DNA of 64,000 nucleotides from Escherichia coli (GTDB lineage: Bacteria > Pseudomonadota > Gammaproteobacteria > Enterobacterales > Enterobacteriaceae). Position numbers and translations under genes: made by a program. The DNA is taken from NCBI RefSeq assembly GCF_030384885.1, contig NZ_CP128613.1. The stretch is one strand, 5' to 3'. The notes below the pieces were generated by a model. It saw nothing but the letters and a program-made list of their open reading frames with translations, was not told the origin of the DNA and made no database searches. The number at the start of each line of letters is the position of its first letter. The stretch's first letter is position 1. Below, in pieces: positions 36,368 through 55,780 of this stretch.

Positions 36368-38610
<2,243 letters not shown>

Positions 38611-38623
38611 TTCCGGTCTCCTG

Positions 38624-39379
38624 TCAGAACTTATAACCACGATGCAGCGCCACAACCCCTGCCGTCAGGTTGTAATAGTCGACACTTTCGAATCCAGCAT
38701 CCTGCATCATAGCTTTCAGGGTGTCCTGATCGGGATGCATGCGGATAGATTCAGCAAGATAACGGTAGCTGTCAGCGTCGTTCGCGACCAGTGAGCCAAT
38801 ACGCGGCAGCACATGGAAGGAGTAAGCGTCATAGGCCTTACTTAACGGCTCGATAATCGGCTTCGAGAACTCAAGCACCAGCAGTCGGCCGCCAGGTTTC
38901 AGAACGCGATACATTGAACGCAGAGCTTTATCTTTGTCAGTGACGTTACGCAGACCAAACGAAATGGTGATGCAATCAAAGGTGTTATCCGGGAACGGCA
39001 GCGCCTCAGCGTTCGCCTGAACATACTCAACGTTGCCAATCACACCAATATTACGCAGCTTCTCGCGGCCCATTTTGAGCATGGATTCATTGATATCAGC
39101 AAGGACCACTTTGCCAGTTTCACCCACCAGGCGGGAGAATTTCGCTGTCAGGTCGCCAGTACCGCCTGCCAGATCCAGCACGGTCTGCCCGCGGCGTACG
39201 CCACTGCAATCAATCGTGAAGCGTTTCCACAAACGATGTATGCCAAAAGACATCAAATCATTCATGACATCGTATTTCGATGCCACGGAATGGAAAACGT
39301 GGGCGACCATATCCGCTTTTTGTTCCTTCGCGACGGTCTGAAAACCAAAGTGCGTCGTTTCTTGTGACTTATCCACCAT
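38624..39379 (-). CDS. ubiE: ubiquinone/menaquinone C-methyltransferase
   Basis: 251-aa ORF with SAM-binding motif ([11 protein letters not shown]). Confidence 0.96.
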
Positions 39380-39473
39380 CTCAATGCCTGCTCATCAAAA
39401 AATTGTTCCAGAAGTGTAACAGATTGGGCGTCGATGCCCTAGATTTCTACCCGGCTTAACTACCCCCAATGGG

Positions 39474-40901
39474 CTAGCGCGACTGCTGATTATATTCATC
39501 ATCGCGTTGATAAGCTTCATCATTCGGCTGCTCCGGTACCGACCGCAGTCGATACTCTTCATCCTGGCTCACCGCTTGTTCAGCCAAATCCGGATTAATC
39601 TCGCGTTTAATTTCTACTCCTAAACCGCGAAACGCTTCTGCCTGCGCCAGCACATTTCCGCGACCTGAAGAGAGTTTTTTCATTGCCTGGCGATAGTTGT
39701 CCTGTGCTTTGTCCAGACTTTGACCAATCGCGGACATATCATCGACAAACAAGCGCATTTTGTCGTACAACTTGCTGGCGCGATCGGCTATTTTCTGGGC
39801 GTTACGACTTTGATGCTCATAGCGCCAGAGGTTGGCGATAGTGCGCAGCGCCACCAGCAGCGTGGTCGGGCTAACCAGCATGATATTGTTTTTCAACGCT
39901 TCGGTGATCAGCTCCGGCTGGCGGTCAAGCGCCAGTAAAAAAGCGGGTTCAACGGGAATAAACATCAGCACGTAATCCAGGGTTCGCAGCCCCGGCAGCT
40001 GTTGATAATCTTTGCGTCCCAGCAAACGGATATGGTTACGCACCGACGCGATATGTTCCTGTAGCGCGCTTTCGCGGGTGTAGTCGTCTTCTGCGTTGAA
40101 ATAGCGTTCATAGGCGACCAGTGTCATTTTTGCGTCGATCACCACATCTTTGCCCTGCGGCAACCGCACGATGACATCCGGCTGCATCCGCGAGCGGGCG
40201 TCATTTTCGATGCTGACCTGGGTTTCATATTCATACCCTTCACGCAGACCGGAAGCCTCCAGCACACGCGTCAATACTACCTCGCCCCAGTTGCCCTGGG
40301 TTTTATTGTCGCCTTTCAGCGCACGCGTCAGGTTGATCGCTTCCTGGGCCATTTGCGCGTTGAGCTGCTGGAGATTGCGTATTTCGTGAGTCAGGGTATG
40401 GCGTTCTTGTGCTTCTTTACCGAAACTGTCCTGAACCTGACGACGAAAACCGTCCAGTTGTTCACGTAGTGGCGACAACAGGCTGTTCAGACTCTGACGG
40501 TTTTGCTCATCAACCCGGCGATTGCTGTGCTCGAAAATACGGTTGGCGAGGTTTTCAAACTGCTCACTGAGGCGCTGTTCGCTGTTGATCATTTGGCGAA
40601 TTTTATCGTCAGCATGTTGCTGTACGGCCTCCATTCGCGTGGTGACTTCACGCAGATCCGCCTCCAGCGAGGTGTTAATGCTTTGCAGACTGCGCACTTC
40701 ATTATTGAGTAACTCGCACTCAGCACGCCAATGTTCGCTTTGGGTAATTTGTTGTTTTGCCGCACTTAACTCCGCGATCATCTCTTCACGTTCAGCGAAT
40801 TGCTCGGCTTTTTGCTGCGCATGCTGATAACTGGCAATCAGCCAGCCAATCGCCACGCTCACCAACGCAATAACTGCGTAAACCATGATTGAGATATCCA
40901 C
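39474..40901 (-). CDS. rmuC: DNA recombination protein RmuC
   Basis: RmuC family with N-terminal TM helix and long coiled-coil; start set at GTG (VDISIMVYAV...) giving about 475 aa, with an ATG alternative 5 codons downstream. Confidence 0.9.
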   Translation of the reverse strand: MDISIMVYAVIALVSVAIGWLIASYQHAQQKAEQFAEREEMIAELSAAKQQITQSEHWRAECELLNNEVRSLQSINTSLEADLREVTTRMEAVQQHADDKIRQMINSEQRLSEQFENLANRIFEHSNRRVDEQNRQSLNSLLSPLREQLDGFRRQVQDSFGKEAQERHTLTHEIRNLQQLNAQMAQEAINLTRALKGDNKTQGNWGEVVLTRVLEASGLREGYEYETQVSIENDARSRMQPDVIVRLPQGKDVVIDAKMTLVAYERYFNAEDDYTRESALQEHIASVRNHIRLLGRKDYQQLPGLRTLDYVLMFIPVEPAFLLALDRQPELITEALKNNIMLVSPTTLLVALRTIANLWRYEHQSRNAQKIADRASKLYDKMRLFVDDMSAIGQSLDKAQDNYRQAMKKLSSGRGNVLAQAEAFRGLGVEIKREINPDLAEQAVSQDEEYRLRSVPEQPNDEAYQRDDEYNQQSR

Positions 40902-41019
40902 AACGCCTCCAGCCTCATTACTTACCCGCACAAAATAGAATTGTGCTGTACAAACGTCCAGTTTGAAAGAAGTTTCCTGCGAGGCGCTACGCAAAACGAT
41001 CCTTAATTTTTATTATTTT

Positions 41020-41055
41020 ATCCCACAATATGAGACGTAGTTTATATTGTGGGAT
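41020..41055. promoter_or_regulatory. perfect inverted repeat, candidate operator upstream of the IclR-family gene
   Basis: ATCCCACAATAT (41020-41031), 12-bp spacer, ATATTGTGGGAT (41044-41055); about 60 bp upstream of the regulator start in the rmuC-divergent intergenic region. Confidence 0.4.
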
Positions 41056-41116
41056 ATATCACCTTTTCCCCACGTCATTATGTGGAACACTTCAGCAATA
41101 TCATCAGGAGAAACGT

Positions 41117-41884
41117 ATGGCAGATACCTCTTCAACCACCGCTGGCGCACAAACGTTATTACGCGGGCTGGCGGTTCTTAATGCTGTTTATAACGGCTGC
41201 CATGACCTGAAAAGTATCGGCGAGTTCACCGGCACGACCCGGAGCACAACCCATCGTTTAGTCACCGTTCTGGTGGAACAACGCTACCTGCGCCACGTCC
41301 CAACGCAGGGCTACCAACTGGGCGCCAAACTGATCGAATTCGGTGCCAGAGCGCTGGAAAGCACCTCGCTGTACGAAATTGCGCTGCCCGTTTTGCAGCG
41401 TCTGGCCCGTTACACCCTGGACACCGTGCATCTGGGGATCGTTGAAGGCGACGAAGTGCTGTATCTGGAGAAGATCAACAGTCAGCGTGGGCTGGAAATG
41501 CGCTCACGCCCAGGCCATCGCATGCCACTGGCAATCACCGGCATCGGCAAGGCATTGATCCTCAACCGAACAGAAGAAGAGTGGCGCACGCTGTTTAAGA
41601 CCTGTGGTGATGAAACAAAACTGGGCACATTTATTCAGAACATGCGTCGTTATGCCGCCAGTGGTTTTGCTTTTGATCTGGAAGAGAACGAGCCGACTAT
41701 CCGTTGCGTTGCAGCGCCGGTTTACAACGCCCGGGATGAAATTGTGGCGGCTATTTCTGTCGCCAGTACCACTACGTATATGTCACTGGCGCGTCTGGAA
41801 GAACTGGCACCTTACGTCAAATCCTGTGCAGAAGAGATATCCGCTGAACTGGGCTGGGGTAAGCACGTCCGCAAAAATAAATAA
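41117..41884 (+). CDS. IclR-family transcriptional regulator
   Basis: 255-aa ORF from MADTSS with SD AGGAGA; N-terminal wHTH (LRGLAVLNAV...IGEFTGTTRSTTHRLVTVLVEQRYL) and C-terminal IclR effector domain pattern. Confidence 0.85.
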   Translation: MADTSSTTAGAQTLLRGLAVLNAVYNGCHDLKSIGEFTGTTRSTTHRLVTVLVEQRYLRHVPTQGYQLGAKLIEFGARALESTSLYEIALPVLQRLARYTLDTVHLGIVEGDEVLYLEKINSQRGLEMRSRPGHRMPLAITGIGKALILNRTEEEWRTLFKTCGDETKLGTFIQNMRRYAASGFAFDLEENEPTIRCVAAPVYNARDEIVAAISVASTTTYMSLARLEELAPYVKSCAEEISAELGWGKHVRKNK

Positions 41885-41907
41885 ACCATGACTAAAGGAA
41901 ACGGCTA

Positions 41908-42912
41908 ATGTCGGGAAACACCTCATTTATTGCCCTGGACTGGGGAACGTCATCGCTTCGGGCATGGCGTTTTGGCGACTCACCAAATCCACAAGAAAAA
42001 CGTGAATTCCCGTGGGGGATCATGAAATTACCCTCCCAGGCAGCAACACGTGAGGACGCTTTCCACGATACGTTTTTACGTGTCTGCGGCGACTGGCTGG
42101 CACAATCCCCATGCCCGATTCTGGCTTGCGGCATGATCGGCAGTGCGCAAGGGTGGCAACCCGCAGCTTATTTACCTTGCCCGGTCACTCTCGAGGGTCT
42201 GGCAAAGCAGTTGACGCCTGTTATCTACCAGCAGCAGACAATGCTGCACATCATTCCCGGCGTGATTAAAGAAGGTGAAATGCCCGAAGTGATGCGTGGC
42301 GAAGAGACACAAATCTTCGGTGCTATCTCGATGGAACCGGCCCTGCAAAACGCGCTCCGCCAGGGTATGCCTGTGCTGATTGGCTTACCTGGCACACATG
42401 CGAAATGGGCGGTAGTTGAAAACAACACCATTACCGATTTTCGAACCTTTATGACAGGCGAGTTATTTGATGTTTTATCCCGCCATTCGATTCTCGGTGC
42501 CACCATGCGTTCGGGAGATGAACCGCACTGGGATGCCTTCGCCCACGGGCTGACAGCGGCACAAGAGCATCATCAGACCGGATTATTATCGACGCTGTTT
42601 TCGACCCGTTCGCGCCTGCTGACCAGTAATCTTACGCCGTCCTCACAGGGGGATTACCTTTCAGGATTACTGATAGGCCATGAATTATGCGGTCTGGCAT
42701 CCAGTTTGCTACGTGATTTACCCGCCACAACACCGATCGCCTTAATCGGTAGCGCCACTCTGAACAGCCGCTATTCACAAGCATTCAGCCACGTTTTTCC
42801 CGACAGACAGCTACACGCCATTCCTAATGCCACTGAACAGGGGTTATGGCGAATCGCCCACGCTGCCGGGCTACTCTCCACCAACGCCAGGGAATGTACT
42901 CATGCCATTTAA
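41908..42912 (+). CDS. 2-dehydro-3-deoxygalactonokinase-like sugar-acid kinase (DgoK family)
   Basis: 334-aa ORF sharing the motifs I recall from DgoK: ALDWGTSSLRAW, MRGEETQ, PGTHAKW, FRTFMTGELF. Confidence 0.85.
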   Translation: MSGNTSFIALDWGTSSLRAWRFGDSPNPQEKREFPWGIMKLPSQAATREDAFHDTFLRVCGDWLAQSPCPILACGMIGSAQGWQPAAYLPCPVTLEGLAKQLTPVIYQQQTMLHIIPGVIKEGEMPEVMRGEETQIFGAISMEPALQNALRQGMPVLIGLPGTHAKWAVVENNTITDFRTFMTGELFDVLSRHSILGATMRSGDEPHWDAFAHGLTAAQEHHQTGLLSTLFSTRSRLLTSNLTPSSQGDYLSGLLIGHELCGLASSLLRDLPATTPIALIGSATLNSRYSQAFSHVFPDRQLHAIPNATEQGLWRIAHAAGLLSTNARECTHAI

Positions 42913-43531
42913 TACGCTTTTGCAAAAAACCGGGTTAGTCGCCATTTTACGCGGCGTGAAACCGGATGAGATTGTCGCCATCGGTGAAAAGCTGTATGCC
43001 GCTGGATTTCGCCTGATTGAGATTCCCATGAACTCGCCGGAGCCGTTGCAAAGTATCAGTTTACTGCGCGACGCCCTGCCTAAGGACTGCCTGGTCGGAG
43101 CCGGAACGGTGCTTTCGGTGGAGCAAGTCGTCGCGGTTAAAGAGGCTGGAGGCCAGATTATCGTAATGCCGCATTGCGATACTGCGGTGATCCGTCGTGC
43201 CCGTGCGCTGGGTATGTATTGTGCGCCTGGCGTCGCTACGCCCACCGAAGCTTTTGCTGCCATTGAACATGGCGCCAATGCCATCAAGCTGTTCCCGGCT
43301 GAACAAATTACGCCTGAAGTCACCAAAGCCTGGCGTGCGGTTATTCCACAATCCGTTCCGATGTTACCGGTTGGCGGTATCACTCCAGACACAATGGCGC
43401 GTTATCTGAGCCACGGCGCAAACGGCTTTGGCCTCGGTTCTGCGCTATATCGCCCCGGCATGACGCCAGAGCAAGTCTATGAAAATGCAGTACTGTTTAT
43501 GAACGCATGGAACAATTTAAATAGCAAATAA
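42902..43531 (+). CDS. 2-dehydro-3-deoxy-6-phosphogalactonate / KDPG-type aldolase (DgoA/Eda family)
   Basis: About 209-aa ORF from MPFNTLLQKTGLVAILRG; class I aldolase TIM-barrel pattern (EIPMNSP, GAGTV, KLFPA, GGIT). Start overlaps the kinase 3' end by 11 bp. Confidence 0.85.
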   Translation: MPFNTLLQKTGLVAILRGVKPDEIVAIGEKLYAAGFRLIEIPMNSPEPLQSISLLRDALPKDCLVGAGTVLSVEQVVAVKEAGGQIIVMPHCDTAVIRRARALGMYCAPGVATPTEAFAAIEHGANAIKLFPAEQITPEVTKAWRAVIPQSVPMLPVGGITPDTMARYLSHGANGFGLGSALYRPGMTPEQVYENAVLFMNAWNNLNSK

Positions 43532-43555
43532 CTGATAAATAAGGATATAAAAGCA

Positions 43556-44530
43556 ATGATAAAACATCTTACCTTACCGAAAAAAATGGCTGCAATGGTA
43601 CTTCTTGCCGGCGCTGCCCTCAGCACTGCGCCTGTGCAGGCGGCCTCCTGGCCAACCAAACAGATCGAGTTAGTCGTACCCTACGCGGCCGGAGGCGGTA
43701 CGGATCTGGTTGCCCGTGCCTTTGCTGATGCCGCCAAAAACCATTTGCCCGTCAGCATCGGGGTTATCAATAAACCTGGCGGTGGCGGCGCTATCGGCCT
43801 GAGTGAAATCGCCGCTGCCCGCCCTAACGGTTACAAAATGGGTTTAGGCACGGTTGAACTGACCACCCTTCCCAGTCTCGGAATGGTGCGTTTTAAAACC
43901 AGCGACTTTAAACCCATTGCCCGTCTGAATGCGGATCCTGCGGCTATCACCGTCCGTGCCGATGCACCGTGGAATAGCTATGAAGAATTTATGACTTACG
44001 CCAAAGCGAATCCCGGAAAAGTACGCATTGGTAACTCAGGCACCGGAGCAATCTGGCATCTGGCGGCAGCTGCACTGGAAGACAAAACGGGCGTGAAGTT
44101 TTCTCATGTCCCATATGACGGCGCAGCCCCTGCCATTACAGGCCTGTTAGGCGGGCATATTGAAGCGGTTTCCGTAAGCCCAGGTGAAGTTATCAATCAT
44201 GTGAAAGGCGGCAAGCTGAAGACACTGGTAGTGATGGCGGATGAACGTATGAAAACCATGCCTGACGTCCCGACGTTAAAAGAGAAAGGCGTTGATCTCT
44301 CCATCGGCACCTGGCGCGGCCTGATTGTGTCGCAAAAAACGCCGCAGGATGTGGTTGATGTTCTGGCTAAGGCCGCAAAAGAGACGGCTGAAGAGCCTGC
44401 ATTCCAGGATGCTCTGCAAAAGTTGAATCTCAACTATGCATGGCTTGATGGTGCCAGCTTCCAGACCCAAATCAACGAACAGGAAAAGTACTTTGACGAG
44501 TTACTAACTCGGCTGGGCTTGAAAAAATAA
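43556..44530 (+). CDS. tripartite tricarboxylate transporter substrate-binding protein (TctC/Bug family)
   Basis: 324-aa ORF with signal peptide (MIKHLTLPKKMAAMVLLAGAALSTAPVQA) and the TctC-type motifs ...VVPYAAGGGTD..., ...NKPGGGGAIG.... Confidence 0.85.
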   Translation: MIKHLTLPKKMAAMVLLAGAALSTAPVQAASWPTKQIELVVPYAAGGGTDLVARAFADAAKNHLPVSIGVINKPGGGGAIGLSEIAAARPNGYKMGLGTVELTTLPSLGMVRFKTSDFKPIARLNADPAAITVRADAPWNSYEEFMTYAKANPGKVRIGNSGTGAIWHLAAAALEDKTGVKFSHVPYDGAAPAITGLLGGHIEAVSVSPGEVINHVKGGKLKTLVVMADERMKTMPDVPTLKEKGVDLSIGTWRGLIVSQKTPQDVVDVLAKAAKETAEEPAFQDALQKLNLNYAWLDGASFQTQINEQEKYFDELLTRLGLKK

Positions 44531-44546
44531 TCCCGAGGTACGGTCG

Positions 44547-45053
44547 ATGAACACAAAACAGTCTGTTGCTCAACTCGCCGTACCGCACCGCAAGCGCTTT
44601 TCATCCACTGTGGTGGTGGCGCTGTTACTTTGTGTGGTTGCTGGCGCGGTGATAATTAATGCCGCTGATTTTCCAGCAACTGCCATTGAAACGGATCCCG
44701 GTGCAAGTGCCTTCCCTACTTTCTATGCCTGCGCTCTGATTGTGCTCGCTGTCTTACTGGTGATACGCGATCTTTTGCTGGCAAAACCAGTCCCTTGCGC
44801 CAACGCACAGGAAAAACCGGCATTCAGGAAAACGGCAACGGGAATTGCGGCAACCGCGTTTTATATTGTGGCGATGAGCTACTGCGGTTATCTCATTACT
44901 ACTCCTGTTTTCCTCATCGTCATTATGACGTTGATGGGCTACAGGCGATGGGTACTCACACCGGGTATTGCGCTGCTGTTAACGGCAATCCTCTGGTTGC
45001 TGTTTGTCGAAGCGTTACAGGTGCCATTGCCTGTCGGCACATTTTTCGAATAA
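44547..45053 (+). CDS. tripartite tricarboxylate transporter small membrane subunit (TctB-like)
   Basis: 168-aa hydrophobic protein with about 4 TM segments, positioned between tctC-like and tctA-like genes. Confidence 0.75.
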   Translation: MNTKQSVAQLAVPHRKRFSSTVVVALLLCVVAGAVIINAADFPATAIETDPGASAFPTFYACALIVLAVLLVIRDLLLAKPVPCANAQEKPAFRKTATGIAATAFYIVAMSYCGYLITTPVFLIVIMTLMGYRRWVLTPGIALLLTAILWLLFVEALQVPLPVGTFFE

Positions 45054-45065
45054 CAGGGGCCTGCA

Positions 45066-46556
45066 ATGTTTGAAAGTGAACTTTTAACTCAGGGGTTTTC
45101 GACATTACTCAGTAATCCTCAGGCGCTGCTGTTTGCCACGTTTGGAGTGATACTGGGTATTATGATTGGCGCTCTGCCTGGCCTGACAGCGACCATGGGT
45201 GTGGCGATTTTGCTGCCTTTCACCTACGGCATGGAGCCTGTTTCTGGCTTGTTGATGATTTGCGGTGTCTTTTTTGGTGGTGTGTATGGTGGTTCTATCA
45301 CCGCAATTTTGCTCAAAATTCCCGGTACGCCTGCCGCCGCTGCCACCGCCATTGACGGTTATGAGTTAACGAAGCAGGGAAAAGCCGGGCTGGCATTAAG
45401 TGCCGCCACGTTCTCTTCTTTTAGCGGTGGAACGCTCAGCATTATCGTATTGATGTTTCTCTCTCCGGTACTTGCCAGTTGGGCGTTGAAATTTAGTGCC
45501 TCGGAGTCCTTCGCCCTGGCAACCTTCGGACTAAGTATTATTGCCAGTATTTCCGGTGAGTCACTGATTAAAGGGCTGATTGCCGGGGTTGGCGGATTAC
45601 TGATCGCAACGATAGGCCTCGATCCGATGGGCGGTTTTCCACGCTTTACGGGCGGGTTTGTGGAACTGATGAATGTGCCATTTATCCCGGTGATGATTGG
45701 TCTGTTTGCTGCTTCAGAAGCGTTCCGTTCTATGGAACAAAATCAGCATATTCGTCAGAGCGCGAACGTGGCTATCGGCAGTCTGTTACTGCCCTGGCAA
45801 ACGCTACGCCGCATCGCATTAACCATTTTGCGCTCATCAGGATTAGGGGTTTTTATCGGCATGATCCCCGGTGCGGGGGCAGATATTGCAGCTTTTGTTG
45901 CCTATAACGAAACTCGTCGTTTCAGTAAGACGCCTGAAAACTTTGGTAAGGGTGAGATTAAGGCGGTGGCCTCCTGTGAGGCAGGCGCGAATGGCTGCAC
46001 CGGTGGCGCATTGTTACCTATGCTGACGTTGGGGATCCCAGGCGATGCGGTAACTGCCATCATGCTGGGCGCGTTAACGTTACAAGGGATGCAGCCAGGC
46101 CCACTGATGTTTACCGACCACGGCGATATGGTTTATACGCTGTTTGTCGGCATGATCTTTTGTTACTTCATGCTGCTAGTTCTTGGACTGCTCTCTTTGA
46201 AAGTCATCGGTAACGTGGTGAAGATCCCCGGCAATATTCTCACGCCGATGATCCTCGCACTTTGTGTGGTCGGGACTTATGCGTTGAACAATAGCCTGTT
46301 TGATGTTGGCATTATGCTGATTGCAGGCGTGGTGGGCTATTTCATGCAAAAAGGGGGGTATCCGGCATCACCCGTAGTGCTGGCATTGATTATGGGGCCA
46401 ATGGCGGAAAGTAATTTTCGCCGTGCGCTGTCGCTTTCTGGTGGGTCACTCGACTTTCTGTATACCCGACCGATAACCCTGGCATTGCTGACACTGGCAG
46501 CCTTTACGCTACTGACGCCAATAATACGCAAAATTATGCGCTTACGGCGTCAGTAA
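45066..46556 (+). CDS. tripartite tricarboxylate transporter large permease (TctA family)
   Basis: 496-aa polytopic membrane protein with Gly-rich TM segments typical of TctA (GALPGLTATMGVAILLPFTYGM, GGSITAILLKIPGTPAAAAT). Confidence 0.9.
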   Translation: MFESELLTQGFSTLLSNPQALLFATFGVILGIMIGALPGLTATMGVAILLPFTYGMEPVSGLLMICGVFFGGVYGGSITAILLKIPGTPAAAATAIDGYELTKQGKAGLALSAATFSSFSGGTLSIIVLMFLSPVLASWALKFSASESFALATFGLSIIASISGESLIKGLIAGVGGLLIATIGLDPMGGFPRFTGGFVELMNVPFIPVMIGLFAASEAFRSMEQNQHIRQSANVAIGSLLLPWQTLRRIALTILRSSGLGVFIGMIPGAGADIAAFVAYNETRRFSKTPENFGKGEIKAVASCEAGANGCTGGALLPMLTLGIPGDAVTAIMLGALTLQGMQPGPLMFTDHGDMVYTLFVGMIFCYFMLLVLGLLSLKVIGNVVKIPGNILTPMILALCVVGTYALNNSLFDVGIMLIAGVVGYFMQKGGYPASPVVLALIMGPMAESNFRRALSLSGGSLDFLYTRPITLALLTLAAFTLLTPIIRKIMRLRRQ

Positions 46557-46589
46557 TTGATATCGCTCCCCGACGTTGGGGAGTATGAG

Positions 46590-46740
46590 ACTGATGACAA
46601 ACGCTAAATTGCCTGATGCGCTGCGCTTATCAGGCCTACCACAGAAATGCAATATATTGAATTTGCATGCTTTTGTAGGCCGGGTAAGGCGATCACGCCG
46701 CATCCGGCATGAACAAAGCACACGTTAACAACAATCGGAA
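46590..46740. repeat. REP/BIME palindromic repeat cluster
   Basis: GCCTGATGCGCTGCGCTTATCAGGCCTAC, TGTAGGCCGGGTAAGGCGATCACGCCGCATCCGGC units between the transporter gene and udp. Confidence 0.55.
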
Positions 46741-46766
46741 TGCTCCCCTAAGCCAGGGAGCTTTTT

Positions 46767-47531
46767 TTATTTCAGCAGACGACGCGCCGCTTCCACCACG
46801 ATTTTCACCGCCTGGCTTTCGGTTTGTTTCATCGTCTCAGCATTCGGGATCTCTTGTTGGGTACGATTGACGATAACGCCCGCCACCATACCGGCACGAA
46901 GGCCCTGGCTTGCACACATGGTCAGCAGGGTTGCAGATTCCATTTCATAGTTCATTACGCCCATCGCCTGCCACTCTTCCATAGAACCTTTAAAGTGACG
47001 GACTACGCGACCAGAGTAAGTATCGTAACGTTCCTGACCCGGGTAGAAGGTATCAGAAGAAGCCGTCACACCAACGTGAGTGGTGGCACCAATTGACTTC
47101 GCCGCTTCAACCAGCGCGGTCGTACATTCGAAATCTGCGACAGCCGGGAACTCCAGCGGAGCGAAGTGCAGGCTCGCGCCATCCAGACGAACAGACGCCG
47201 TGGTCACCAGCACATCGCCGACATTGATATGCGGCTGGATAGCGCCCGTTGTACCGATACGCAGGAAGGTGCGAATGCCCAGCTGTGCCAGCTCTTCAAC
47301 CGCAATAGAGGTAGACGGGCCGCCGATACCGGTAGAGCAGACGATAACAGGTTTACCATCCAGCTCTGCACGCCAGGTGGTGAATTCGCGGTGAGATGCC
47401 AGCTTAACCGGCTTATCCATCAGCGCGGCGATCTTTTCCACACGATCCGGGTCGCCAGGGACGATGGCAAGCGTAGCCCCTTGTAAATCGTTTTTAGTGA
47501 GGCCGAGATGAAAAACATCAGACTTGGACAT
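46767..47531 (-). CDS. udp: uridine phosphorylase
   Basis: 253-aa ORF from [19 protein letters not shown]; PNP/UDP phosphorylase family. Confidence 0.96.
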
Positions 47532-47792
47532 ATACAACTCCTCTGTGAATCGGTTTAGTCAGAAGAAGCAAAAAGACACTTTACCGAAGGGTTTAACATT
47601 TTTTCGTGACACTCATCACCTTGATGCAAATGCGTTGCATAAATTTACCCAGCAAAAGTGATGCGAATCACATAAATCACTCTTCATTCTGCATGACTGC
47701 ATAAAAGATGAGCCGATTCAGGCAATGTGATTTGTTGCATGCTGACTATAGTTAACATTGCGCAACATTTTTATAAGGGTACGGAGAATACC

Positions 47793-48605
47793 ATGGCAAC
47801 AACACAACAATCTGGATTTGCACCTGCTGCATCACCTCTCGCTTCGACCATCGTTCAGACCCCGGATGACGCGATTGTAGCAGGCATCACCTCTATCCCT
47901 TCACAAGGGGATAACATGCCTGCTTACCATGCCAGACCAAAGCAGAGCGATGGCCTACTACCAGTGGTCATTGTAGTGCAGGAAATTTTTGGCGTGCATG
48001 AACATATCCGCGATATTTGTCGCCGTCTGGCGCTGGAGGGGTATCTGGCTATCGCACCTGAACTTTACTTCCGCGAAGGCGATCCGAATGATTTTGCCGA
48101 TATCCCTACGCTGCTTAGCGGTCTGGTAGCAAAAGTGCCTGACTCGCAGGTGCTGGCCGATCTCGATCATGTCGCCAGTTGGGCGTCACGCAACGGCGGC
48201 GATGTTCATCGCTTAATGATCACCGGATTTTGCTGGGGTGGACGTATCACCTGGCTATATGCTGCGCATAACCCGCAACTGAAAGCGGCGGTGGCATGGT
48301 ACGGCAAACTGACAGGCGATAAGTCGCTGAATTCACCGAAACAACCTGTTGATATCGCAACCGATCTTAACGCGCCGGTTCTCGGCTTATATGGTGGTCA
48401 GGATAACAGCATTCCGCAGGAGAGCGTTGAAACCATGCGCCAGGCGCTGCGGGCTGCTAATGCGAAAGCAGAGATTATCGTCTACCCGGATGCCGGGCAT
48501 GCATTCAACGCCGATTATCGCCCGAGCTATCATGCTGAGTCGGCGAAAGATGGCTGGCAGCGTATGCTGGAGTGGTTTAAGCGGTATGGTGGGAAACGGA
48601 ATTAG
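47793..48605 (+). CDS. ysgA: dienelactone hydrolase-family protein YsgA
   Basis: About 270-aa ORF from MATTQQSGF; alpha/beta hydrolase with nucleophile elbow GFCWGG. Confidence 0.9.
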   Translation: MATTQQSGFAPAASPLASTIVQTPDDAIVAGITSIPSQGDNMPAYHARPKQSDGLLPVVIVVQEIFGVHEHIRDICRRLALEGYLAIAPELYFREGDPNDFADIPTLLSGLVAKVPDSQVLADLDHVASWASRNGGDVHRLMITGFCWGGRITWLYAAHNPQLKAAVAWYGKLTGDKSLNSPKQPVDIATDLNAPVLGLYGGQDNSIPQESVETMRQALRAANAKAEIIVYPDAGHAFNADYRPSYHAESAKDGWQRMLEWFKRYGGKRN

Positions 48606-48996
48606 TTTCCTCTTATTCTATATTTGAGATGGTGAGTGAACGAATGCGTTTTGCTGCCATCTCTGTCCCCCAAAAAATAATCAGTATGAATTGATTGGAG
48701 AGCACGACTCCGCTATTTGACCTTAAGAAAGTCGGCAAGTCATAGTCATAAATGAGTCTCTTCACTGGCAGACACCTTAAAGATTTACCATCAACTCCCA
48801 TTCTCAAACAAACATTAATTATTATCAACACATTCACATTAATTATAAATTACCTCAGACCTTCCTGATAAAAAGATATTAAAGTGAAACATTTTGTTTT
48901 TCACATTTTAGTTCATCCCTTTTAGGCGTAAATAAAGGTAAAAAATAACAATACTATTTTTCTTTCACAAAAAAATTAACAAAAGGTTTTTCAAGG

Positions 48997-50145
48997 ATGA
49001 GTGATATTATCTACCTGACCATAACCGGAGAACAACACGGATGTATTTCCTCTCGTTGTGGAACGAGCACATCAATAGGTAATCGCTGGCAGATTGGTCA
49101 TGAAGATGAAATCTTCGCATTCTCGCTCTCTAATAGTATTACGAATACAGGAAAAGGGTCACATTTGCATGGCCTTAGTTTCTGTAAGTTGATTGACAAA
49201 AGCTCCCCGTTACTTATTAACGCTATTAACAATAACGAGCAGTTGTTCATGGAGTTTGACTTCTATCGGATCAATAGATTTGGTCGATGGGAGAAATATT
49301 ACAACATTCAACTCCGCGGCGCGCTCTTATCAGCAATCAATCACCTGTTTACGGAGAACAATCTGGATACAGAAACCATCACTGTCAGTTATGAATATAT
49401 ACTCTCCAGGCATCTGATTGCTAATACTGAATTTAGTTATTTGGCATTTCCCGATAACTACAATCGTCTGTTTATACCACGGCCAAAAACTAAAGATGAT
49501 AATGGCCTCAAAACACTCAATAGTAAAGCTGTTGGCAGACTGCTTGCTGCTGGCGGCATATACAATGGGAATATCGAAGGATTCAGGGAAACAGCAAACA
49601 AGTTGGGGGGAGATGCACCTGCTGGTTACGATCAAGTTATGGATAACAAAGGGTTACTCATCGCTGGTGCTTCAATAGTTGCTGGAGCAGTTCTGGGGAG
49701 AATGAGACTCCCTGATTTGGAATCACTTGAGCATTTCGGAGCCAGAGGAGCAGTATCAGGAAGACCATTTAATCCCGACCTTGCCGGTGGTCCAATAGAA
49801 AATCTGACGACAGATGGCGTAACAATCAACAGGGAAGGTATCGCTATTGTTGAAAAACACATAGCCAGATTTGGTCATGACCCTGTAAATGAAGTGATGA
49901 TCAATAGACTGAAAGACATTGAGAAAGGAAAAATCCCCCCAGAACAAGTAGATCTTAACTTCTATACTCATGAATGTCGGGAATATCAGCGTTACTGTAA
50001 TCTTGGTTGGGAAACAGGACAACCTGATGGTGACGCAGGCTATGCACTCTGGAATCATACGCATACTGCTACTCTAGAAGATTATAAACTTAAGGGAGAA
50101 CTTAATGACTTATACCACCAGGACGCACTTGACTATGATAACTGA
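48997..50145 (+). CDS. Hcp (T6SS tube protein, TssD) fused to a C-terminal extension; candidate evolved-Hcp toxin effector
   Basis: 382-aa ORF. The N-terminal ~160 aa follow the Hcp pattern (ITGEQHG...NRW..GHEDEIFAFS...KLIDKSSPLLINAI...EFDFYRIN) as I recall it; then a Gly-rich linker and a ~130-aa His/Cys-containing C-terminal region. Low GC and AT-rich upstream region. Confidence 0.8.
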   Translation: MSDIIYLTITGEQHGCISSRCGTSTSIGNRWQIGHEDEIFAFSLSNSITNTGKGSHLHGLSFCKLIDKSSPLLINAINNNEQLFMEFDFYRINRFGRWEKYYNIQLRGALLSAINHLFTENNLDTETITVSYEYILSRHLIANTEFSYLAFPDNYNRLFIPRPKTKDDNGLKTLNSKAVGRLLAAGGIYNGNIEGFRETANKLGGDAPAGYDQVMDNKGLLIAGASIVAGAVLGRMRLPDLESLEHFGARGAVSGRPFNPDLAGGPIENLTTDGVTINREGIAIVEKHIARFGHDPVNEVMINRLKDIEKGKIPPEQVDLNFYTHECREYQRYCNLGWETGQPDGDAGYALWNHTHTATLEDYKLKGELNDLYHQDALDYDN

Positions 50146-50380
50146 AACTGAAATTAACATACTGAAAGTTATGGCTGAGAAAGATATAAACTGGAACTGG
50201 ATGAATCTCGATCGCACACTATCTATAAGGCAAATTCCAGGATTCGGTAATGTTGTTAACATTGTTAACAAATTAGCTAACGAGGGTTTGGTTATTATTG
50301 AGGATAGCGGACATAAGTCTATGCCTCACTACCACGTTACTGATAAGGGATACAATCTCGTGAAAAGTGAGAATAAATAA
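50135..50380 (+). CDS. small protein downstream of the Hcp fusion; candidate immunity protein (alternative: small wHTH-like protein)
   Basis: 81-aa ORF (MITETEINILKVMAEKD...), or 91 aa from the upstream ATG at 50105. Its start overlaps the Hcp-fusion stop (ATGATAACTGA), the arrangement seen in toxin/immunity pairs. Confidence 0.5.
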   Translation: MITETEINILKVMAEKDINWNWMNLDRTLSIRQIPGFGNVVNIVNKLANEGLVIIEDSGHKSMPHYHVTDKGYNLVKSENK

Positions 50381-50527
50381 CGTAGCGTTGATTACTGAAC
50401 AAATCGCTCAGGATTATATTTTGCGAAAAAAATGATTCGGTTATTTCTGTGTCTGAACGGCCGCAGATAGCAAAATGGCTTCCGGTGATGGAAGCCATCA
50501 GATTATTGGCAAAGTGCGTGTTGTTCA

Positions 50528-50562
50528 TGCCGGATGCGGCGTGAACGCCTTATCTGGCCAAC
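50528..50562. repeat. REP element
   Basis: GCCGGATGCGGCGTGAACGCCTTATCTGGCC. Confidence 0.5.
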
Positions 50563-50666
50563 TAAATCTTGAAAATTCAATAAATTGAATAAATTATGTA
50601 GACTTGGTATCAGGCAGTTTTGCCTCTTTCATCGTACTGCAATTTACAGTGACTCGTTAATACTCA

Positions 50667-52928
50667 TCACCCCCGACGCAAATTCTGCGCCGCCTGCACC
50701 ATGTTCGCCAGTGCCGCGCGGGTTTCTGGCCAGCCGCGCGTTTTCAGACCACAGTCCGGGTTGACCCACAGACGCTCTGCCGGAATGCGTTTTGCCGCTT
50801 TCTTCAGCAGGGCTTCAATCCATTCCACGCTCGGTACGTTTGGCGAGTGAATGTCATAGACGCCAGGACCGATTTCATTTGGATAATCAAACTCTTCAAA
50901 CGACTCCAGCAACTCCATGTCGGAACGCGAGGTTTCGATTGTGATGACGTCTGCGTCCAGCGCCGCAATCGAATCCATGATGTCGTTGAACTCGCAGTAA
51001 CACATGTGAGTGTGGATTTGCGTGTCATCTTTCGCTACGGCAGCGTTGATACGGAAAGCCTCCACGCCCCACTGGAGATAGGCATCCCAGTCGCTGCGAC
51101 GCAGCGGTAAACCTTCGCGTAGCGCCGGTTCATCAATCTGGATGATGCCAATTCCAGCGGCTTCCAGATCGGCCACTTCATCACGAAGCGCCAGCGCAAT
51201 TTGTTTGGCGATGGTTTCACGGCTGACATCTTCACGCGGGAACGACCAGCAGAGAATGGTCACCGGGCCAGTCAGCATCCCTTTCACCGGTTTGTCGGTC
51301 AGCGATTGCGCATACTTTGCCCACTCCACGGTAATCGGTGCCGGGCGGCTAACGTCACCAATGACAATCGGCGGTTTCACGCAGCGGGAACCGTAGCTCT
51401 GTACCCAACCGTTTTGTGTAAAGACAAAACCGTCGAGGTGCTCACCAAAGTATTCCACCATGTCATTACGCTCGGCCTCACCATGCACCAGCACATCCAG
51501 ACCCAGACGTTCCTGCTCAACAATGGCCTGCTTGATATGTTCTGCAATGCCCGTACGATAGTTGTTGGCGTCGAGATTACCCTTTTTGAAATCCAGACGC
51601 AGGGTACGGATTTCTGTGGTTTGCGGGAAAGAGCCAATCGTGGTGGTCGGCCACGCGGGCAGTTTAAAACGCGCACGCTGGGCTTCAGCACGCACTTCAT
51701 AGACATTCGCACGCTGACTGTCCTGGGCGGTGATCGCCGCCAGACGCTTTTCTACTGCCGGATTATGTACACGAGTAGAGTGACGACGCGCCTGAATCGG
51801 TGCACTCCACTCTGCCAGAGCTGCCGTGTCACCACTGTTCAGCGCATCGCGCAGCAATGCCAGTTCATGGCATTTTTGCAGGGCGAAGGCAAACCAGCTT
51901 TTCACTTCTGCATCAAGACGCGTTTCCACGCTCAGGTCGATAGGGCTGTGCAGCAATGAGCAGGAAGATGCCACCCACAAATCACGTTTGCCGACAATGT
52001 CCTTAATTTGCGCATATTTCTCGGTAAGATCGGCGCGCCAGACGTTACGACCATTGATAAGACCCGCAGACAGCAGCCAGTCAGAAGGCAGACGCTTGTG
52101 CAGTTCAGCAACGTCATCTTTACCATGTACGAGATCGACATGCAGCCCCTGAACAGGCAGCGCAGTAATGGTGTCGAGGTTTGGCGTTACGCCTTCAAAA
52201 TAGGTGGTCAGCAGCAGTTTCACCTGGCCCTGGAGCGCGTCGTAAGCGGGTTTATAGGCGTCCAGCCACGCCTGCGGCAGTTCCAGCACCAGTGCGGGTT
52301 CGTCGATCTGTACCCACTCAATGCCACGTTTTGCCAGTTCTGCCAACACTTGCTGATAAACCGGCAGAATGTCGTTTAGCAGGCTCAGGCGATCAAACTG
52401 TTCACCTTTCACTTTACCCAGCCACAGGTAGGTAACCGGTCCCAGCAGCACGGGCTTGACCTTGTGGCCCAGCGCCAGCGCCTCGTCCACTTCCTCCAGC
52501 AGCTGCGTCCAGGTCAGTTTGAACTGTTGGCCTTTAACGAACTCCGGCACCATGTAGTGATAGTTGGTGTTAAACCATTTGGTCATTTCCGCTGCCGCCG
52601 CAGGTTCGCCAGTCGGCGCACGTCCACGACCAATACGGAACAGGGTGTCGATATCTACCGAACCATCTTTGTTCTGATGACGTGGCGGAACGTTACCCAG
52701 CAGCAGACTGGTGGTCAGTACATGATCGTACCAGGCAAAATCGCCCACCGGCAGCAGGTCGATACCCGCTTGCTTTTGTTGATCCCAGTGACGAGCACGC
52801 AGTTCACGCCCTACCGCCAGCAGTTCTTCACGCGTGGTGTTCCCGGCCCAATAACTCTCTTGCGCTTTTTTCAGCTCGCGACGCAGGCCAACGCGAGGGA
52901 AACCGAGGGTGTGATTCAATATTGTCAT
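50667..52928 (-). CDS. metE: cobalamin-independent methionine synthase
   Basis: 753-aa ORF ([30 protein letters not shown]...). Confidence 0.97.
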
Positions 52929-53163
52929 TTTTCTTCCTCTAATTATATGTAAATCCTATGGATTTTGAATTTAGGGAAGGCGGCAAGTTTATTCATCCCC
53001 GGGAGCTTACTGAAGTAAGTGACCGGGGTGAAGAAACGCAGCCAACGCACCATAAATTTAAAAGACGAAGGATTTTAGCCGTCCAGATGTTTACACATCC
53101 ATAATTGGCGGTTACTGTATATTCCTCAAGCGCAAATTATTCATGCCGAAGTGAAGGACTTTC

Positions 53164-54117
53164 ATGATCGAAGTAAAACACCTGAAAACGCTACAAGCGT
53201 TGCGGAACTGCGGCTCACTCGCAGCCGCTGCGGCGACGTTGCATCAAACGCAATCCGCCCTGTCTCACCAGTTTAGCGATCTGGAACAACGCCTTGGCTT
53301 CCGGCTATTTGTGCGTAAAAGCCAGCCGCTTCGGTTTACACCGCAGGGAGAAATCCTGTTGCAACTGGCGAATCAGGTGCTGCCGCAAATCAGCCAGGCA
53401 CTGCAAGCCTGCAATGAACCGCAGCAGACGCGCCTGCGCATTGCCATTGAGTGCCATAGCTGTATTCAGTGGCTGACGCCCGCGTTAGAAAATTTCCATA
53501 AGAACTGGCCGCAGGTGGAGATGGATTTTAAATCGGGCGTGACGTTTGACCCGCAGCCCGCGTTGCAGCAGGGTGAGCTGGATCTGGTGATGACCTCCGA
53601 TATTCTGCCGCGCAGTGGCCTGCATTATTCGCCGATGTTCGATTATGAAGTGCGTCTGGTGTTGGCACCTGACCATCCACTGGCGACAAAAACGCGAATC
53701 ACGCCGGAAGATCTCGCCAGCGAAACGCTGTTGATTTATCCGGTGCAGCGTAGCCGACTGGATGTCTGGCGGCATTTTCTTCAGCCCGCAGGCGTTAGCC
53801 CGTCACTGAAAAGCGTCGATAACACCTTGTTGTTGATTCAGATGGTTGCCGCGCGGATGGGCATCGCTGCGCTACCGCACTGGGTGGTGGAGAGTTTTGA
53901 ACGCCAGGGTCTGGTGGTCACCAAAACCCTGGGCGAAGGCTTGTGGAGCCGACTGTACGCCGCCGTGCGCGATGGCGAGCAGCGTCAGCCGATTACAGAA
54001 GCGTTTATTCGCTCAGCGCGCAATCACGCCTGCGATCATCTGCCGTTTGTGAAGAGCGCGGAGCGACCCACTTACGATGCACCCACAGTGAGGCCAGGAT
54101 CACCAGCGCGCCTGTAA
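53164..54117 (+). CDS. metR: LysR-family transcriptional regulator MetR
   Basis: 317-aa ORF with N-terminal LysR HTH ([39 protein letters not shown]); divergent from metE. Confidence 0.96.
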
Positions 54118-54904
54118 TAAACGTTGGCCAGTGCGGCTGTTGGTGCCAGATAGCCAGGTTAACCAACAGCCCTGCCGGAACGTGCATATTATTCATAATG
54201 CCCAGCGTTCCGGCGTCCACCTGAGTCGCGCCGTAGTTCCACATAAAGTAGCCAATACCGGAAGCCACCACGCCAAGAAACACCAGAATGCCCCATTGCA
54301 GCGTGGTTTGCGGCATTTTCTGCGCATTTCCCAGCAAGAACCATGCAATCACCGCCACCAGGAACGCGCCAAGATAGAACCACGCAAAGGCGTTATGCTG
54401 CGGCATCGGGCGAGTTTCCATCAGGCGTTTGTAACCCACCATGCCGATGGCAAAAGTGATATTGGAGAGTTGTACCAGTAACAGGCCGGTCCAGAAGTGG
54501 TCGGTGACCTGATCATAGCGAATAATTCCGGCACCAATCACCGCCAACAAGGCGCTAAAAGCATAGCCCCAGCGCAGACGGCGCTTACTCATGATGTCAT
54601 AAATCAGCGTGATGTAGAGCGGAGTCAGTACGGTGAACAGCAACAGCTCGGAGACCGTCAGGTAGAGATAGGCGCGAAAACTCAGCATATACATCACGCC
54701 AAGCTGCATCGCGCCCACCAGCATATACAGGCCAACCGTTTTCAGGCTATTGCCACGGGTACGCAGAAACGGCAGAAACACGAGTGCCGCCAGGCCAACG
54801 CGCACCAGCACTGCAAAATAGCTATCGACGTGCCCCGCAAGGTACTCGCCATAAAAGCTAAAGGAGAAGGCCCACAGAATCGTGGTGATGATAAGTAGCG
54901 CCAC
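54005..54904 (-). CDS. yigM: DMT-family inner membrane transporter YigM (BioP-like)
   Basis: 299-aa ten-TM EamA-type protein; its 3' end overlaps the metR 3' end on the opposite strand. Confidence 0.9.
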
Positions 54905-54979
54905 AATGGAAAACTCTTTGATTAACGAGTATCCATTGTAGCGAAGTATCAGGTTGACAACTGACCAAATAAAGAACGA

Positions 54980-55780
54980 TTACGATAAATAGAGTTTACG
55001 CAGATAATGCGGCACCGCGTCTTCGGCATTAGTACCAATCACTTCCAGCTCCGGATGCAGATCTTTCAGACGCTGGTGCGCACTGCCCATAATGCAGCCT
55101 TTACCTGCCATCGACAGCATTTCGGCGTCGTTCATCCCGTCACCAAAGGCAATACAATCTTTCAGACTGTAGCCCAGTTTCTTCGCCACCGCTTCCAGGG
55201 CATGGCCTTTTGAAACGCCGCCCGCCATCACTTCCAGACAAGTTAGGGTAGAGAAACTGACATTGACGCGATCGCCCCAACGAGCGTTGATTGCCTGTTC
55301 CAGCGGCAGCAGTTGTTCATGAGAATCACAGGTGAAGAACACTTTACTGACGCCTTCCGGATCCAGTAATCCTGGCTCATACAGCGCATACTTGAACACC
55401 GCTTCTTTAAAAAAGCGCATCTCTTCCGGGCGGTGGCGATTCATAAACCATTCGTCGTCGCGATAAACGTTAGTAATGATGTCCGGGTTGTCGTTGACCA
55501 CGCCAAACAGATCGCTGGCAATGTCGCGATCCAGGTTATGAGCAAAAATCAGATTGCCATCCAGATCGTGAACACGCGCGCCATTGGAGGTAATCATGTA
55601 AGACTTAATCTCCAGATTATCGCGAATTTGCCCTACATCAACGTGGTGGCGACCGGTCGCAAACACAAAGTTAATGCCGCGCGCGGTGAGGAGCTTCAGA
55701 GTTTCTTTGGCGTAAGGGGATAACGTATGGTCGGGAGAAAGTAACGTGCCATCTAAATCAGACGCAACAACCTGGTACAT
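54980..55780 (-). CDS. yigL: HAD-family sugar phosphatase YigL
   Basis: 266-aa ORF from MYQVVASDLDGTLL (HAD motif I DxDGT); start chosen inside the longer track ORF. Confidence 0.9.
   Translation of the reverse strand: MYQVVASDLDGTLLSPDHTLSPYAKETLKLLTARGINFVFATGRHHVDVGQIRDNLEIKSYMITSNGARVHDLDGNLIFAHNLDRDIASDLFGVVNDNPDIITNVYRDDEWFMNRHRPEEMRFFKEAVFKYALYEPGLLDPEGVSKVFFTCDSHEQLLPLEQAINARWGDRVNVSFSTLTCLEVMAGGVSKGHALEAVAKKLGYSLKDCIAFGDGMNDAEMLSMAGKGCIMGSAHQRLKDLHPELEVIGTNAEDAVPHYLRKLYLS

What the first reader, a model, noticed from the sequence alone, without database searches (positions are those of the whole stretch)
46590..46740. REP/BIME clusters sit at the boundaries of both accessory segments
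REP-type palindromes flank the udp side of the transporter cluster (46590-46740) and the metE side of the Hcp module (50528-50562). REP clusters are common in core intergenic regions, so this may only mark the original intergenic DNA, but they are also reported as recombination/insertion hotspots. Their position could help define exact junctions.
Basis: partly seen in the sequence, partly recalled or inferred. Interest (0 to 1): 0.3.

Follow-up and report, generated by a model that had tools for sequence, protein, structure and literature searches.

The report
Two ordinary BIME-1 repeats near island ends
The palindromes are real: they are two copies (one intact, one decayed) of a well-known E. 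coli intergenic repeat sitting between convergent genes, and they neither mark nor explain where the two variable gene segments join the core genome.

Summary
Window 46585-46741 is a complete BIME-1: a z1 REP, a 35-bp L linker with an IHF-like core, a y REP and conserved outer flanks.

The window matches cryptic clade I E. coli 2013C-4282. Junction mapping against genomes lacking each segment puts the transporter segment at 40997-46768 and the Hcp segment at 48596-50668. There are no target duplications. The K-12-like empty sites contain no REP.

The BIMEs lie 27 and 39 bp inside the right-hand junctions. The same junctions occur without any BIME in about 1,420 of 1,441 transporter-positive genomes and in roughly 1,000 genomes sharing the metE-proximal backbone. 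The BIMEs are therefore independent, old unit-precise indels, not junction determinants.

All six REP loci in the window lie in convergent gene spacers (6 of 11 such spacers), so their position here is expected.

E. whittamii carries the orthologous tctA-udp BIME-1. The local tree favours an ancestral element deleted in E. coli sensu stricto, by a 177-bp loss between two similar hairpins that bracket it.

This is an ordinary finding: new copies of a known repeat family.

The parts
46565..46583 (+). Hairpin 1 (GCTCCCCGACGTTGGGGAG) just after the tctA stop (46554-46556). In E. coli sensu stricto this hairpin plus a T-run is the whole tctA-udp spacer.
46585..46741 (.). Complete BIME-1 unit (157 bp), absent or present as a unit between genomes.
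   Evidence: 87% identity to the fdhE-yiiF BIME-1. Present in 17 of 5,426 genomes, all clade I. An ortholog is present in E. whittamii.
46610..46639 (-). z1-type REP (29-30 nt). Its GTAG lies on the minus strand, facing the linker.
   Evidence: 0 mismatches, 0 expected. Type naming follows PMC8266576 and PMC3333891.
46640..46674 (.). L linker (35 bp) with an IHF-like core ATTCAATATATTG at 46650-46662 (minus strand; 12 of 13 positions of WATCAANNNNTTR).
   Evidence: The same core sits at the same position in 4 linkers; chance expectation is 0.03 per linker.
46675..46709 (+). y-type REP with an intact 5' GTAG.
   Evidence: 1 mismatch to the pattern. Sub-threshold Rfam naRNA4 hit.
46742..46768 (+). 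Hairpin 2 (GCTCCCCTAAGCCAGGGAGC) plus T7. It is the only terminator-like site in the spacer and a 74% direct copy of hairpin 1, 177 bp downstream of it. It overlaps the udp stop codon (46767-46769).
40997..46768 (+). Transporter segment (IclR-family regulator, DgoK-like kinase, DgoA-like aldolase, TctC, TctB, TctA). It replaces 43 bp of the K-12-like rmuC-udp spacer. No target duplication.
48596..50668 (+). Hcp segment (382-aa extended Hcp plus an 81-aa ORF). It replaces about 54 bp of K-12-like sequence (L003 9828-9881): the last codons of ysgA and the 39-bp ysgA-metE spacer. No target duplication.
50477..50496 (+). Hairpin GGCTTCCGGTGATGGAAGCC. It belongs to a metE-proximal backbone of about 75 bp shared by three different cargo types.
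50498..50629 (.). Decayed BIME-1 in inverted orientation relative to the first. Components: flank, y REP 50528-50562 (GTAG mutated to GTTG), L linker 50563-50597 with IHF-like core 50575-50587, z1 remnant 50598-50616 (11-bp deletion), flank. It is a net 131-bp indel relative to Hcp-positive genomes that lack it.

Best explanation
Both features are copies of BIME-1, the single-copy E. coli mosaic element made of one y and one z1 REP around the long IHF-site linker. BIME-1 corresponds to a REPIN-type doublet.

Each copy sits where such elements normally sit, in the spacer between two convergent genes: tctA→←udp, and small ORF→←metE. On the transcript each lies in the 3' untranslated tail of the last gene of a variable segment, after a first stem-loop. 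In the tctA case it lies before the real terminator (hairpin 2 plus a U-run). By analogy with studied REP/BIME elements, they would add stable stem-loops to the mRNA 3' end and an IHF site to the DNA (inferred, not shown).

They are not the junctions of the segments and did not cause their integration. The segments are old alternative alleles whose ends fall in the last codons of udp, ysgA and metE, and they are exchanged by homologous recombination in the flanking core genes (inferred). The BIMEs are separate, old, unit-precise indels within them.

The tctA-udp copy predates the split of E. coli sensu stricto, clade I and E. whittamii. It was most likely lost in the sensu stricto allele by a 177-bp deletion between the two similar hairpins that bracket it (replication slippage across a quasi-palindrome; inferred). 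The metE-side copy entered the backbone of one Hcp-module variant before the clade I / sensu stricto split. It has since decayed (GTAG changed to GTTG; 11-bp deletion), so it is a fossil.
For: Identity as BIME-1:
- REP pattern matches occur with 0 expected by chance.
- The unit is 87% identical, including its outer flanks, to the fdhE-yiiF BIME-1.
- The metE-side copy aligns over its full length to the other two.
- The IHF-like core is conserved in all four linkers.
- The published definition is y+z1, long L linker with an IHF site, single copy, about 140 bp (PMC3333891; PMC1187871).

Junctions:
- BLAST and alignments to K-12-like L003 give 40996/40997, 46768/46769, 48595/48596 and 50668/50669.
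- Each allele carries private sequence at the junction and there are no target duplications.

Independence from the segments:
- 1,441 genomes have the tctA-udp junction and only 17 have the BIME.
- All 21 metagenome contigs carry the BIME-less junction.
- About 1,097 genomes have the metE-proximal backbone and 113 have the BIME.
- O121 and strain 1190 carry the metE-side BIME but no transporter cluster.

Age:
- E. whittamii has the orthologous BIME-1 after the same hairpin (about 91% identity by my count from the alignment, sharing variants not seen in the paralogue).
- The local tree ((window, sensu stricto), E. whittamii) is supported by 96 informative sites against 42 and 39. It matches the published species tree (PMC10100065).
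- The metE-side copy in sensu stricto genomes has the same 11-bp deletion and is 94.3-94.6% identical, which is close to the core-gene divergence seen here (about 95-96%).

Expected habitat:
- All 6 REP loci of the window lie in convergent spacers, occupying 6 of 11 such spacers.

Other:
- The hairpin repeat spacing of 177 bp matches the indel size.
- The spacer RNA folds well below shuffled controls (z = -4.6).
Against: - Polarity of the tctA-udp indel rests on three taxa and parsimony. Recombination among Escherichia clades could mislead it.
- The origin of hairpin 2 is unexplained. An insertion that duplicated the target hairpin is not excluded.
- For the metE-side copy no outgroup is available, because E. 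whittamii has the empty K-12-like site. 'Gain in variant A' is therefore inferred only from its absence in two other cargo types.
- No functional data (IHF binding, mRNA stabilisation, termination) exist for these copies.
- The RAYT gene was not examined, as it lies outside the window.
Confidence: 0.85

Rival explanations
1. The REPs were the recombination or insertion substrate through which the two accessory segments entered the chromosome, acting as a REP-mediated integration hotspot.
For: REPs are documented IS targets and sites of rearrangement (PMC1525189, listed; PMC3333891). Both BIMEs lie within 40 bp of a segment end.
Against: - The empty sites have no REP.
- The same junctions exist without a BIME in about 1,420 and about 1,000 genomes.
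- The junctions sit at the udp and metE stop codons, not at REP ends, and there are no target duplications.
- The left ends have no REP.
- rmuC-cluster-udp synteny is conserved in REP-free form in Phytobacter, Buttiauxella and Klebsiella.
Confidence: 0.03
2. The REPs are leftovers of the original core intergenic DNA (rmuC-udp and ysgA-metE) that the segments were inserted into.
For: REPs are common in core spacers. Four other core convergent spacers in this window have them.
Against: The K-12-like and E. whittamii empty spacers (139, 39 and 55 bp) contain only simple hairpins and share no sequence with the BIMEs. The BIMEs lie on the segment side of both junctions.
Confidence: 0.04
3. The tctA-udp BIME-1 is a gain, not an ancestral element lost in E. 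coli sensu stricto. On this view a RAYT-mediated or recombinational insertion occurred immediately 3' of the terminator stem, duplicating the roughly 19-bp hairpin, and was shared between clade I and E. whittamii by transfer or by site-specific reinsertion.
For: - The hairpin is duplicated exactly around the unit.
- The metE-side copy also abuts a hairpin.
- The BIME-less state is by far the commonest and is uniform.
- The more distant genera are BIME-less.
Against: - The local tree places E. whittamii outside window + sensu stricto.
- The flanks show no E. whittamii-like patch in the window (sliding identities).
- The two hairpin copies differ at 5 of 19 positions while the flanks differ by about 5%, which is too many for a recent duplication.
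- The fdhE-yiiF and yihA-polA copies have no adjacent hairpin, so there is no general target rule.
Confidence: 0.25

Closest known systems
BIME-1 of E. coli (Bachellier/Gilson/Hofnung classification; also described as IHF-binding RIP/RIB elements)
   Same: One y and one z1 REP in inverse orientation with GTAG facing the linker. A conserved long L linker with an IHF consensus core. Single copy of about 140-160 bp. Location in a spacer at gene 3' ends. Presence or absence as a unit between isolates, as already reported for BIME-1 (PMC1187871, citing Bachellier 1997).
   Different: These two copies lie in DNA that K-12 lacks, so they are not in the K-12 BIME/REP catalogues. The metE-side copy is degenerate (GTTG instead of GTAG, truncated z1). 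The tctA-udp copy is bracketed by two similar hairpins.
REPINs mobilised by RAYT / TnpA_REP (Bertels & Rainey 2011; Ton-Hoang 2012)
   Same: A REP doublet forming a long imperfect hairpin. The whole doublet, not a single REP, is the unit of gain or loss. It is old and inherited mainly vertically, consistent with the estimated transposition rate of about 1e-8 per generation (PMC8049555).
   Different: No RAYT gene lies in the window and its presence was not tested. The indel boundaries lie about 25-30 bp outside the REPs, beyond the cleavage sites mapped in vitro near REP feet. Loss by slippage between flanking repeats needs no transposase.
fdhE-yiiF BIME-1 of E. coli (closest paralogue found)
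   Same: 87% identity over about 158 bp including the outer flanks, with the same architecture.
   Different: It is present in essentially all E. coli genomes and has different flanking DNA with no adjacent hairpin.

Membership tests
BIME-1 | One y REP and one z1 REP in inverse orientation | tested here: met
   The y pattern matches at 46675-46708 and 50529-50562. The z1 pattern matches at 46611-46639 with 0 mismatches. The z1 of the second copy is recognisable only as a truncated remnant.
BIME-1 | Conserved GTAG tetranucleotide 5' of each REP | tested here: met
   Both REPs of 46585-46741 have GTAG (read directly from the sequence). In the metE-side remnant the y REP has GTTG, so this feature is not met for that copy.
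BIME-1 | Long conserved L linker carrying an IHF consensus site | tested here: met
   Both linkers are 35 bp. ATTCAATATATTG / ATTCAATAAATTG match 12 of 13 positions of WATCAANNNNTTR, at the same position as in the fdhE-yiiF and E. whittamii copies.
BIME-1 | Single copy (not a tandem array), about 140 bp | tested here: met
   There is one unit at each locus, of 157 and 132 bp.
BIME-1 | IHF protein actually binds the linker | not testable with these tools
   This needs EMSA or ChIP.
REPIN / RAYT system | REP doublet able to fold into a hairpin | tested here: met
   Inverted repeats I2 and I5. The ssDNA fold has z = -2.8 and no shuffle folds as well (run on 46585-46734, i.e. lacking the last 7 bp of the unit).
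REPIN / RAYT system | Cognate RAYT (tnpA_REP / yafM) in the same genome | not tested
   The gene is not within the 64-kb window, and the rest of the genome was not examined.
REPIN / RAYT system | The doublet behaves as the unit of gain or loss | tested here: inconclusive
   Unit-precise presence/absence is seen at both loci. However, the tctA-udp case can be explained by slippage between flanking hairpin repeats without transposition.
Island integration site / attachment hotspot | Segment junction coincides with the element, and the element (or half of it) is present in the empty site | tested here: not met
   The junctions are 27 and 39 bp away from the BIMEs. The empty sites have no REP.
Island integration site / attachment hotspot | Target-site duplication flanking the inserted segment | tested here: not met
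   No repeats occur at 40997/46768 or 48596/50668. Both alleles carry private sequence instead.

The most novel reading that the evidence does not exclude
The three natural states of the tctA-udp spacer are hairpin only, hairpin-BIME-hairpin, and hairpin-BIME. They might record the integration chemistry of BIME-1, which is still unknown. On this reading, the element inserts immediately 3' of a GC-rich terminator stem and duplicates the roughly 19-bp stem-loop. That would give a target rule and a footprint for RAYT-dependent REPIN spread in E. coli.
Probability: 0.08. Interest if true: 0.5.

Novelty: new member of a known kind. Interest (0 to 1): 0.12.

Why it matters
It matters mainly as a negative result. 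REP/BIME elements close to the ends of variable segments should not be read as integration scars or used to place junctions. Here they reflect only the general preference of REPs for convergent 3' spacers.

There is a minor positive value. The locus offers a clean, dated natural example of a BIME-1 kept for the whole E. coli / clade I / E. whittamii divergence and lost once as a unit, with repeats at the deletion end-points. This could serve as a test case for how REP doublets are lost, or possibly gained, a process the literature still calls poorly understood (PMC8266576).

Tried and rejected
- Metagenome scan anchored on the tctA 3' end plus hairpin 1, run to find intermediate allelic states. 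All 21 hits were the E. coli sensu stricto BIME-less junction, differing only in T6 versus T7. Nothing new was found.
- Rfam search. Only sub-threshold hits to the REP-derived sRNA families naRNA4 and ES036 appeared; no family reached its gathering score.
- Test of whether the bracketing hairpin is a repeat family. It has only these two copies in the window.
- Idea that BIME-1 targets the base of terminator stems. I rejected it as a general rule because the fdhE-yiiF and yihA-polA copies have no adjacent hairpin.
- Looking for an E. whittamii-derived recombination patch around the BIME in the window (sliding identities). None was seen.
- Bachellier et al. 1997 (PMC1207841), the primary paper on BIME polymorphism, could not be read. 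Its result is cited second-hand from PMC1187871.
- I first labelled the short REP as z2 from memory. I corrected it to z1 after reading PMC8266576 and PMC3333891.
- My first coordinates for the hairpins were off by 9 bp. I corrected them.

Full report
**Source and layout.** The window matches E. coli strain 2013C-4282 (NZ_CP027579.1) essentially exactly. Okuno et al. place this strain in cryptic clade I, the sister lineage of E. coli sensu stricto (PMC10100065). The local gene order is:

- rmuC(-)
- IclR-family regulator, DgoK-like kinase, DgoA-like aldolase, TctC, TctB, TctA (+, 41030-46556)
- udp(-)
- ysgA(+)
- extended Hcp of 382 aa plus an 81-aa ORF (+, 48997-50380)
- metE(-)
- metR

.

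- A y-REP consensus pattern hits 46675-46708 and 50529-50562, among five hits in the window against none in 100 shuffles.
- A z1-REP pattern hits 46611-46639 perfectly.
- The first interval is one complete BIME-1 unit, 46585-46741. It consists of an outer flank, the z1 REP (46610-39), a 35-bp L linker (46640-74), the y REP (46675-46709) and an outer flank.
- The whole 157 bp, flanks included, is 87% identical to the BIME-1 in the fdhE-yiiF spacer that nearly all E. coli carry.
- The linker carries ATTCAATATATTG, a 12-of-13 match to the IHF consensus WATCAANNNNTTR. The same core sits at the same position in the fdhE-yiiF, E. whittamii and metE-side copies, with 0.03 such matches expected per linker.
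- This matches the published definition of BIME-1: y plus z1, long conserved L linker with an IHF site, single copy, about 140 bp (PMC3333891; PMC1187871; REP sizes in PMC8266576).
50498-50629 aligns end to end with the reverse complement of the first unit. It is a decayed BIME-1 whose z1 REP has lost 11 bp and whose y REP has GTTG in place of the GTAG that TnpA_REP requires.

I compared the window with a K-12-like genome (L003: rmuC-udp-ysgA-metE).
- The transporter segment is window 40997-46768. It replaces 43 bp of the K-12-like rmuC-udp spacer.
- The Hcp segment is 48596-50668. It replaces about 54 bp of K-12-like sequence, comprising the last codons of ysgA and the 39-bp ysgA-metE spacer.
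- The right-hand junctions fall at the stop codons of udp (which gains a Lys codon) and metE (TAA becomes TGA). The left junction of the Hcp segment lies in the last codons of ysgA.
- There are no target duplications. Each allele has private sequence at the junction.
- The K-12-like spacers contain only simple terminator hairpins and no REP. The same is true of the E. whittamii ysgA-metE spacer.
- The BIMEs therefore lie on the segment side of the junctions, 27 bp and 39 bp inside them.

**The decisive point: genomes that have the segments but not the BIMEs.**
- Of 5,426 complete E. coli genomes, 1,441 carry the tctA-udp junction but only 17 carry the BIME there.
- The rest have a 34-bp spacer made of one hairpin plus a T-run.
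- All 21 metagenome contigs with this junction show the same BIME-less state.
- The 17 BIME-positive genomes are the window's own lineage. They are among the 18 genomes that are at least 98.5% identical in polA-yihG, and they include EC42405, another published clade I strain.
- On the metE side, the 75 bp next to metE, with the hairpin GGCTTCC..GGAAGCC, is a backbone shared by three different cargoes. These are Hcp variant A (as here), Hcp variant B (Nissle, strain 222) and an fdrA-arcC-permease-LysR island.
- About 1,097 genomes have that backbone. Only 113, all those inspected being Hcp variant A, have the 131-bp BIME remnant.
- O121:H19 and strain 1190 have the metE-side BIME but no transporter cluster, so the two segments and their BIMEs are independent.

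**Age and polarity.**
- E. whittamii (clade II) has the transporter cluster, the same hairpin 1 and an orthologous BIME-1 at the same nucleotide. It is about 91% identical by my count from the alignment, and shares variants not found in the fdhE-yiiF paralogue. It lacks hairpin 2 and the last few bases of the BIME flank.
- With Phytobacter as outgroup, informative sites support ((window, E. coli sensu stricto), E. whittamii) by 96 against 42 and 39. In tctA alone the counts are 26 against 10 and 8. This agrees with the published species tree.
- The simplest history is an ancestral BIME-1 that was deleted once in the sensu stricto allele.
- The deletion end-points are obvious. The BIME is bracketed by two similar hairpins, 46565-83 and 46742-60, which are 74% identical with identical stems and lie 177 bp apart. 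That spacing is the size of the indel.
- Slippage between short direct repeats across a quasi-palindrome is a classical deletion route. This step is my inference, and I give the ancestral-plus-loss history about 0.65.
- The alternative is an insertion that duplicated the target hairpin. It is not excluded, but it fits the tree and the 5-of-19 divergence of the two hairpins less well.
- The metE-side remnant in sensu stricto genomes has the same 11-bp deletion and is 94.3-94.6% identical to the window's copy, close to the core-gene divergence seen here, about 95-96%. It too predates the clade I / sensu stricto split, or has been exchanged since. No outgroup is available for its polarity.
- The rmuC-cluster-udp arrangement is conserved at about 70-75% nucleotide identity in Phytobacter, Buttiauxella, Klebsiella indica and K. 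spallanzanii, with a plain hairpin and no REP between tctA and udp. The 'accessory' cluster is therefore an ancient presence/absence polymorphism, not a recent insertion.

**Is the position near segment ends more than chance?** No. All six REP loci in the window lie in convergent gene spacers:
- yshB|hemN
- yihA|polA
- fadA|fre
- tctA|udp
- small ORF|metE
- rhtB|rhtC

That is 6 of the window's 11 convergent junctions, and none of the divergent or co-directional ones. Each variable segment ends with a gene converging on a core gene, which is exactly the habitat REPs favour. The two left-hand ends (a divergent and a co-directional junction) have none.

**How it most likely works.**
- Shown: the anatomy, the unit-precise polymorphism and the independence from the junctions.
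- Also shown: only hairpin 2 plus T7 scores as a terminator, so on the tctCBA transcript the BIME-1 lies in the 3' tail between hairpin 1 and the terminator. The 210-nt spacer RNA folds far better than shuffled controls (z = -4.6).
- Inferred from the studied family: protection of the mRNA 3' end, attenuation, and IHF binding at the linker (roles listed in PMC3333891 and PMC8266576).
- Inferred: the metE-side copy is probably an inert fossil.

**Comparison and novelty.** These are two further copies of a well-described repeat family. Presence or absence of BIME-1 between isolates was reported long ago (Bachellier 1997, as cited in PMC1187871). The one unexplained detail is the duplicated hairpin bracketing the intact copy. 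A 'BIME-1 inserts after terminator stems' rule is not general.

**Verdict.** The interpretation as junction markers or hotspots is not supported. Interest is low.

Noticed in passing
window 48997-50145: RefSeq annotates this tssD/Hcp gene as a frameshifted pseudogene, but the window differs from that record by 1 bp. In the window the ORF is intact: 382 aa, 98% identical and gap-free against the intact strain 1190 protein. Only the N-terminal ~135 aa match Pfam Hcp, so the C-terminal ~245 aa are an unassigned extension, presumably a toxin domain. The O121 C-terminal fragment is annotated 'colicin'.
   Followed up: partly
window 48596-50668 and loci L002, L006, L007, L091: ysgA-metE is a multi-cargo hotspot. 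It carries Hcp variant A (382 aa + 81-aa ORF), Hcp variant B (377 aa + 85- and 81-aa ORFs; in Nissle also ptsG/hxlB upstream), or an fdrA-arcC-cytosine permease-LysR island. All share the same ~75-bp metE-proximal backbone. Window 50136-50272 matches two positions in variant B, which suggests paralogous small (immunity-like) ORFs.
   Followed up: partly
window 40997-46768; loci L009-L013: The rmuC-[IclR, DgoK-like, DgoA-like, TctCBA]-udp arrangement is conserved in E. whittamii, Phytobacter, Buttiauxella and two Klebsiella species at roughly core-gene divergence. The 'accessory' cluster is therefore ancient at this site and K-12 represents an absence state.
   Followed up: partly
window ~4940-5110, ~8470-8560, 30813-30920, 57550-57583: There are four further REP loci, all in convergent core spacers: a multi-REP y/z2 cluster (yshB|hemN), a decayed BIME-1-like doublet (yihA|polA), y+z2+y fragment (fadA|fre), and a single y REP (rhtB|rhtC).
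   Followed up: partly
window 46767-46772, 48590-48605, 50667-50669: The segment junctions fall inside the last codons of core genes. udp gains a C-terminal Lys codon in cluster-bearing genomes, the ysgA C-terminus differs, and the metE stop codon is TGA instead of TAA.
   Followed up: no
window 38000-56000 versus L002/L003: Core genes here (ubiE, rmuC, udp, metE, metR) are only ~95-96% identical to typical E. coli. This is consistent with the strain's published assignment to cryptic clade I. About 18 of the 5,426 complete 'E. coli' genomes in the collection belong to this lineage by polA-yihG identity.
   Followed up: yes
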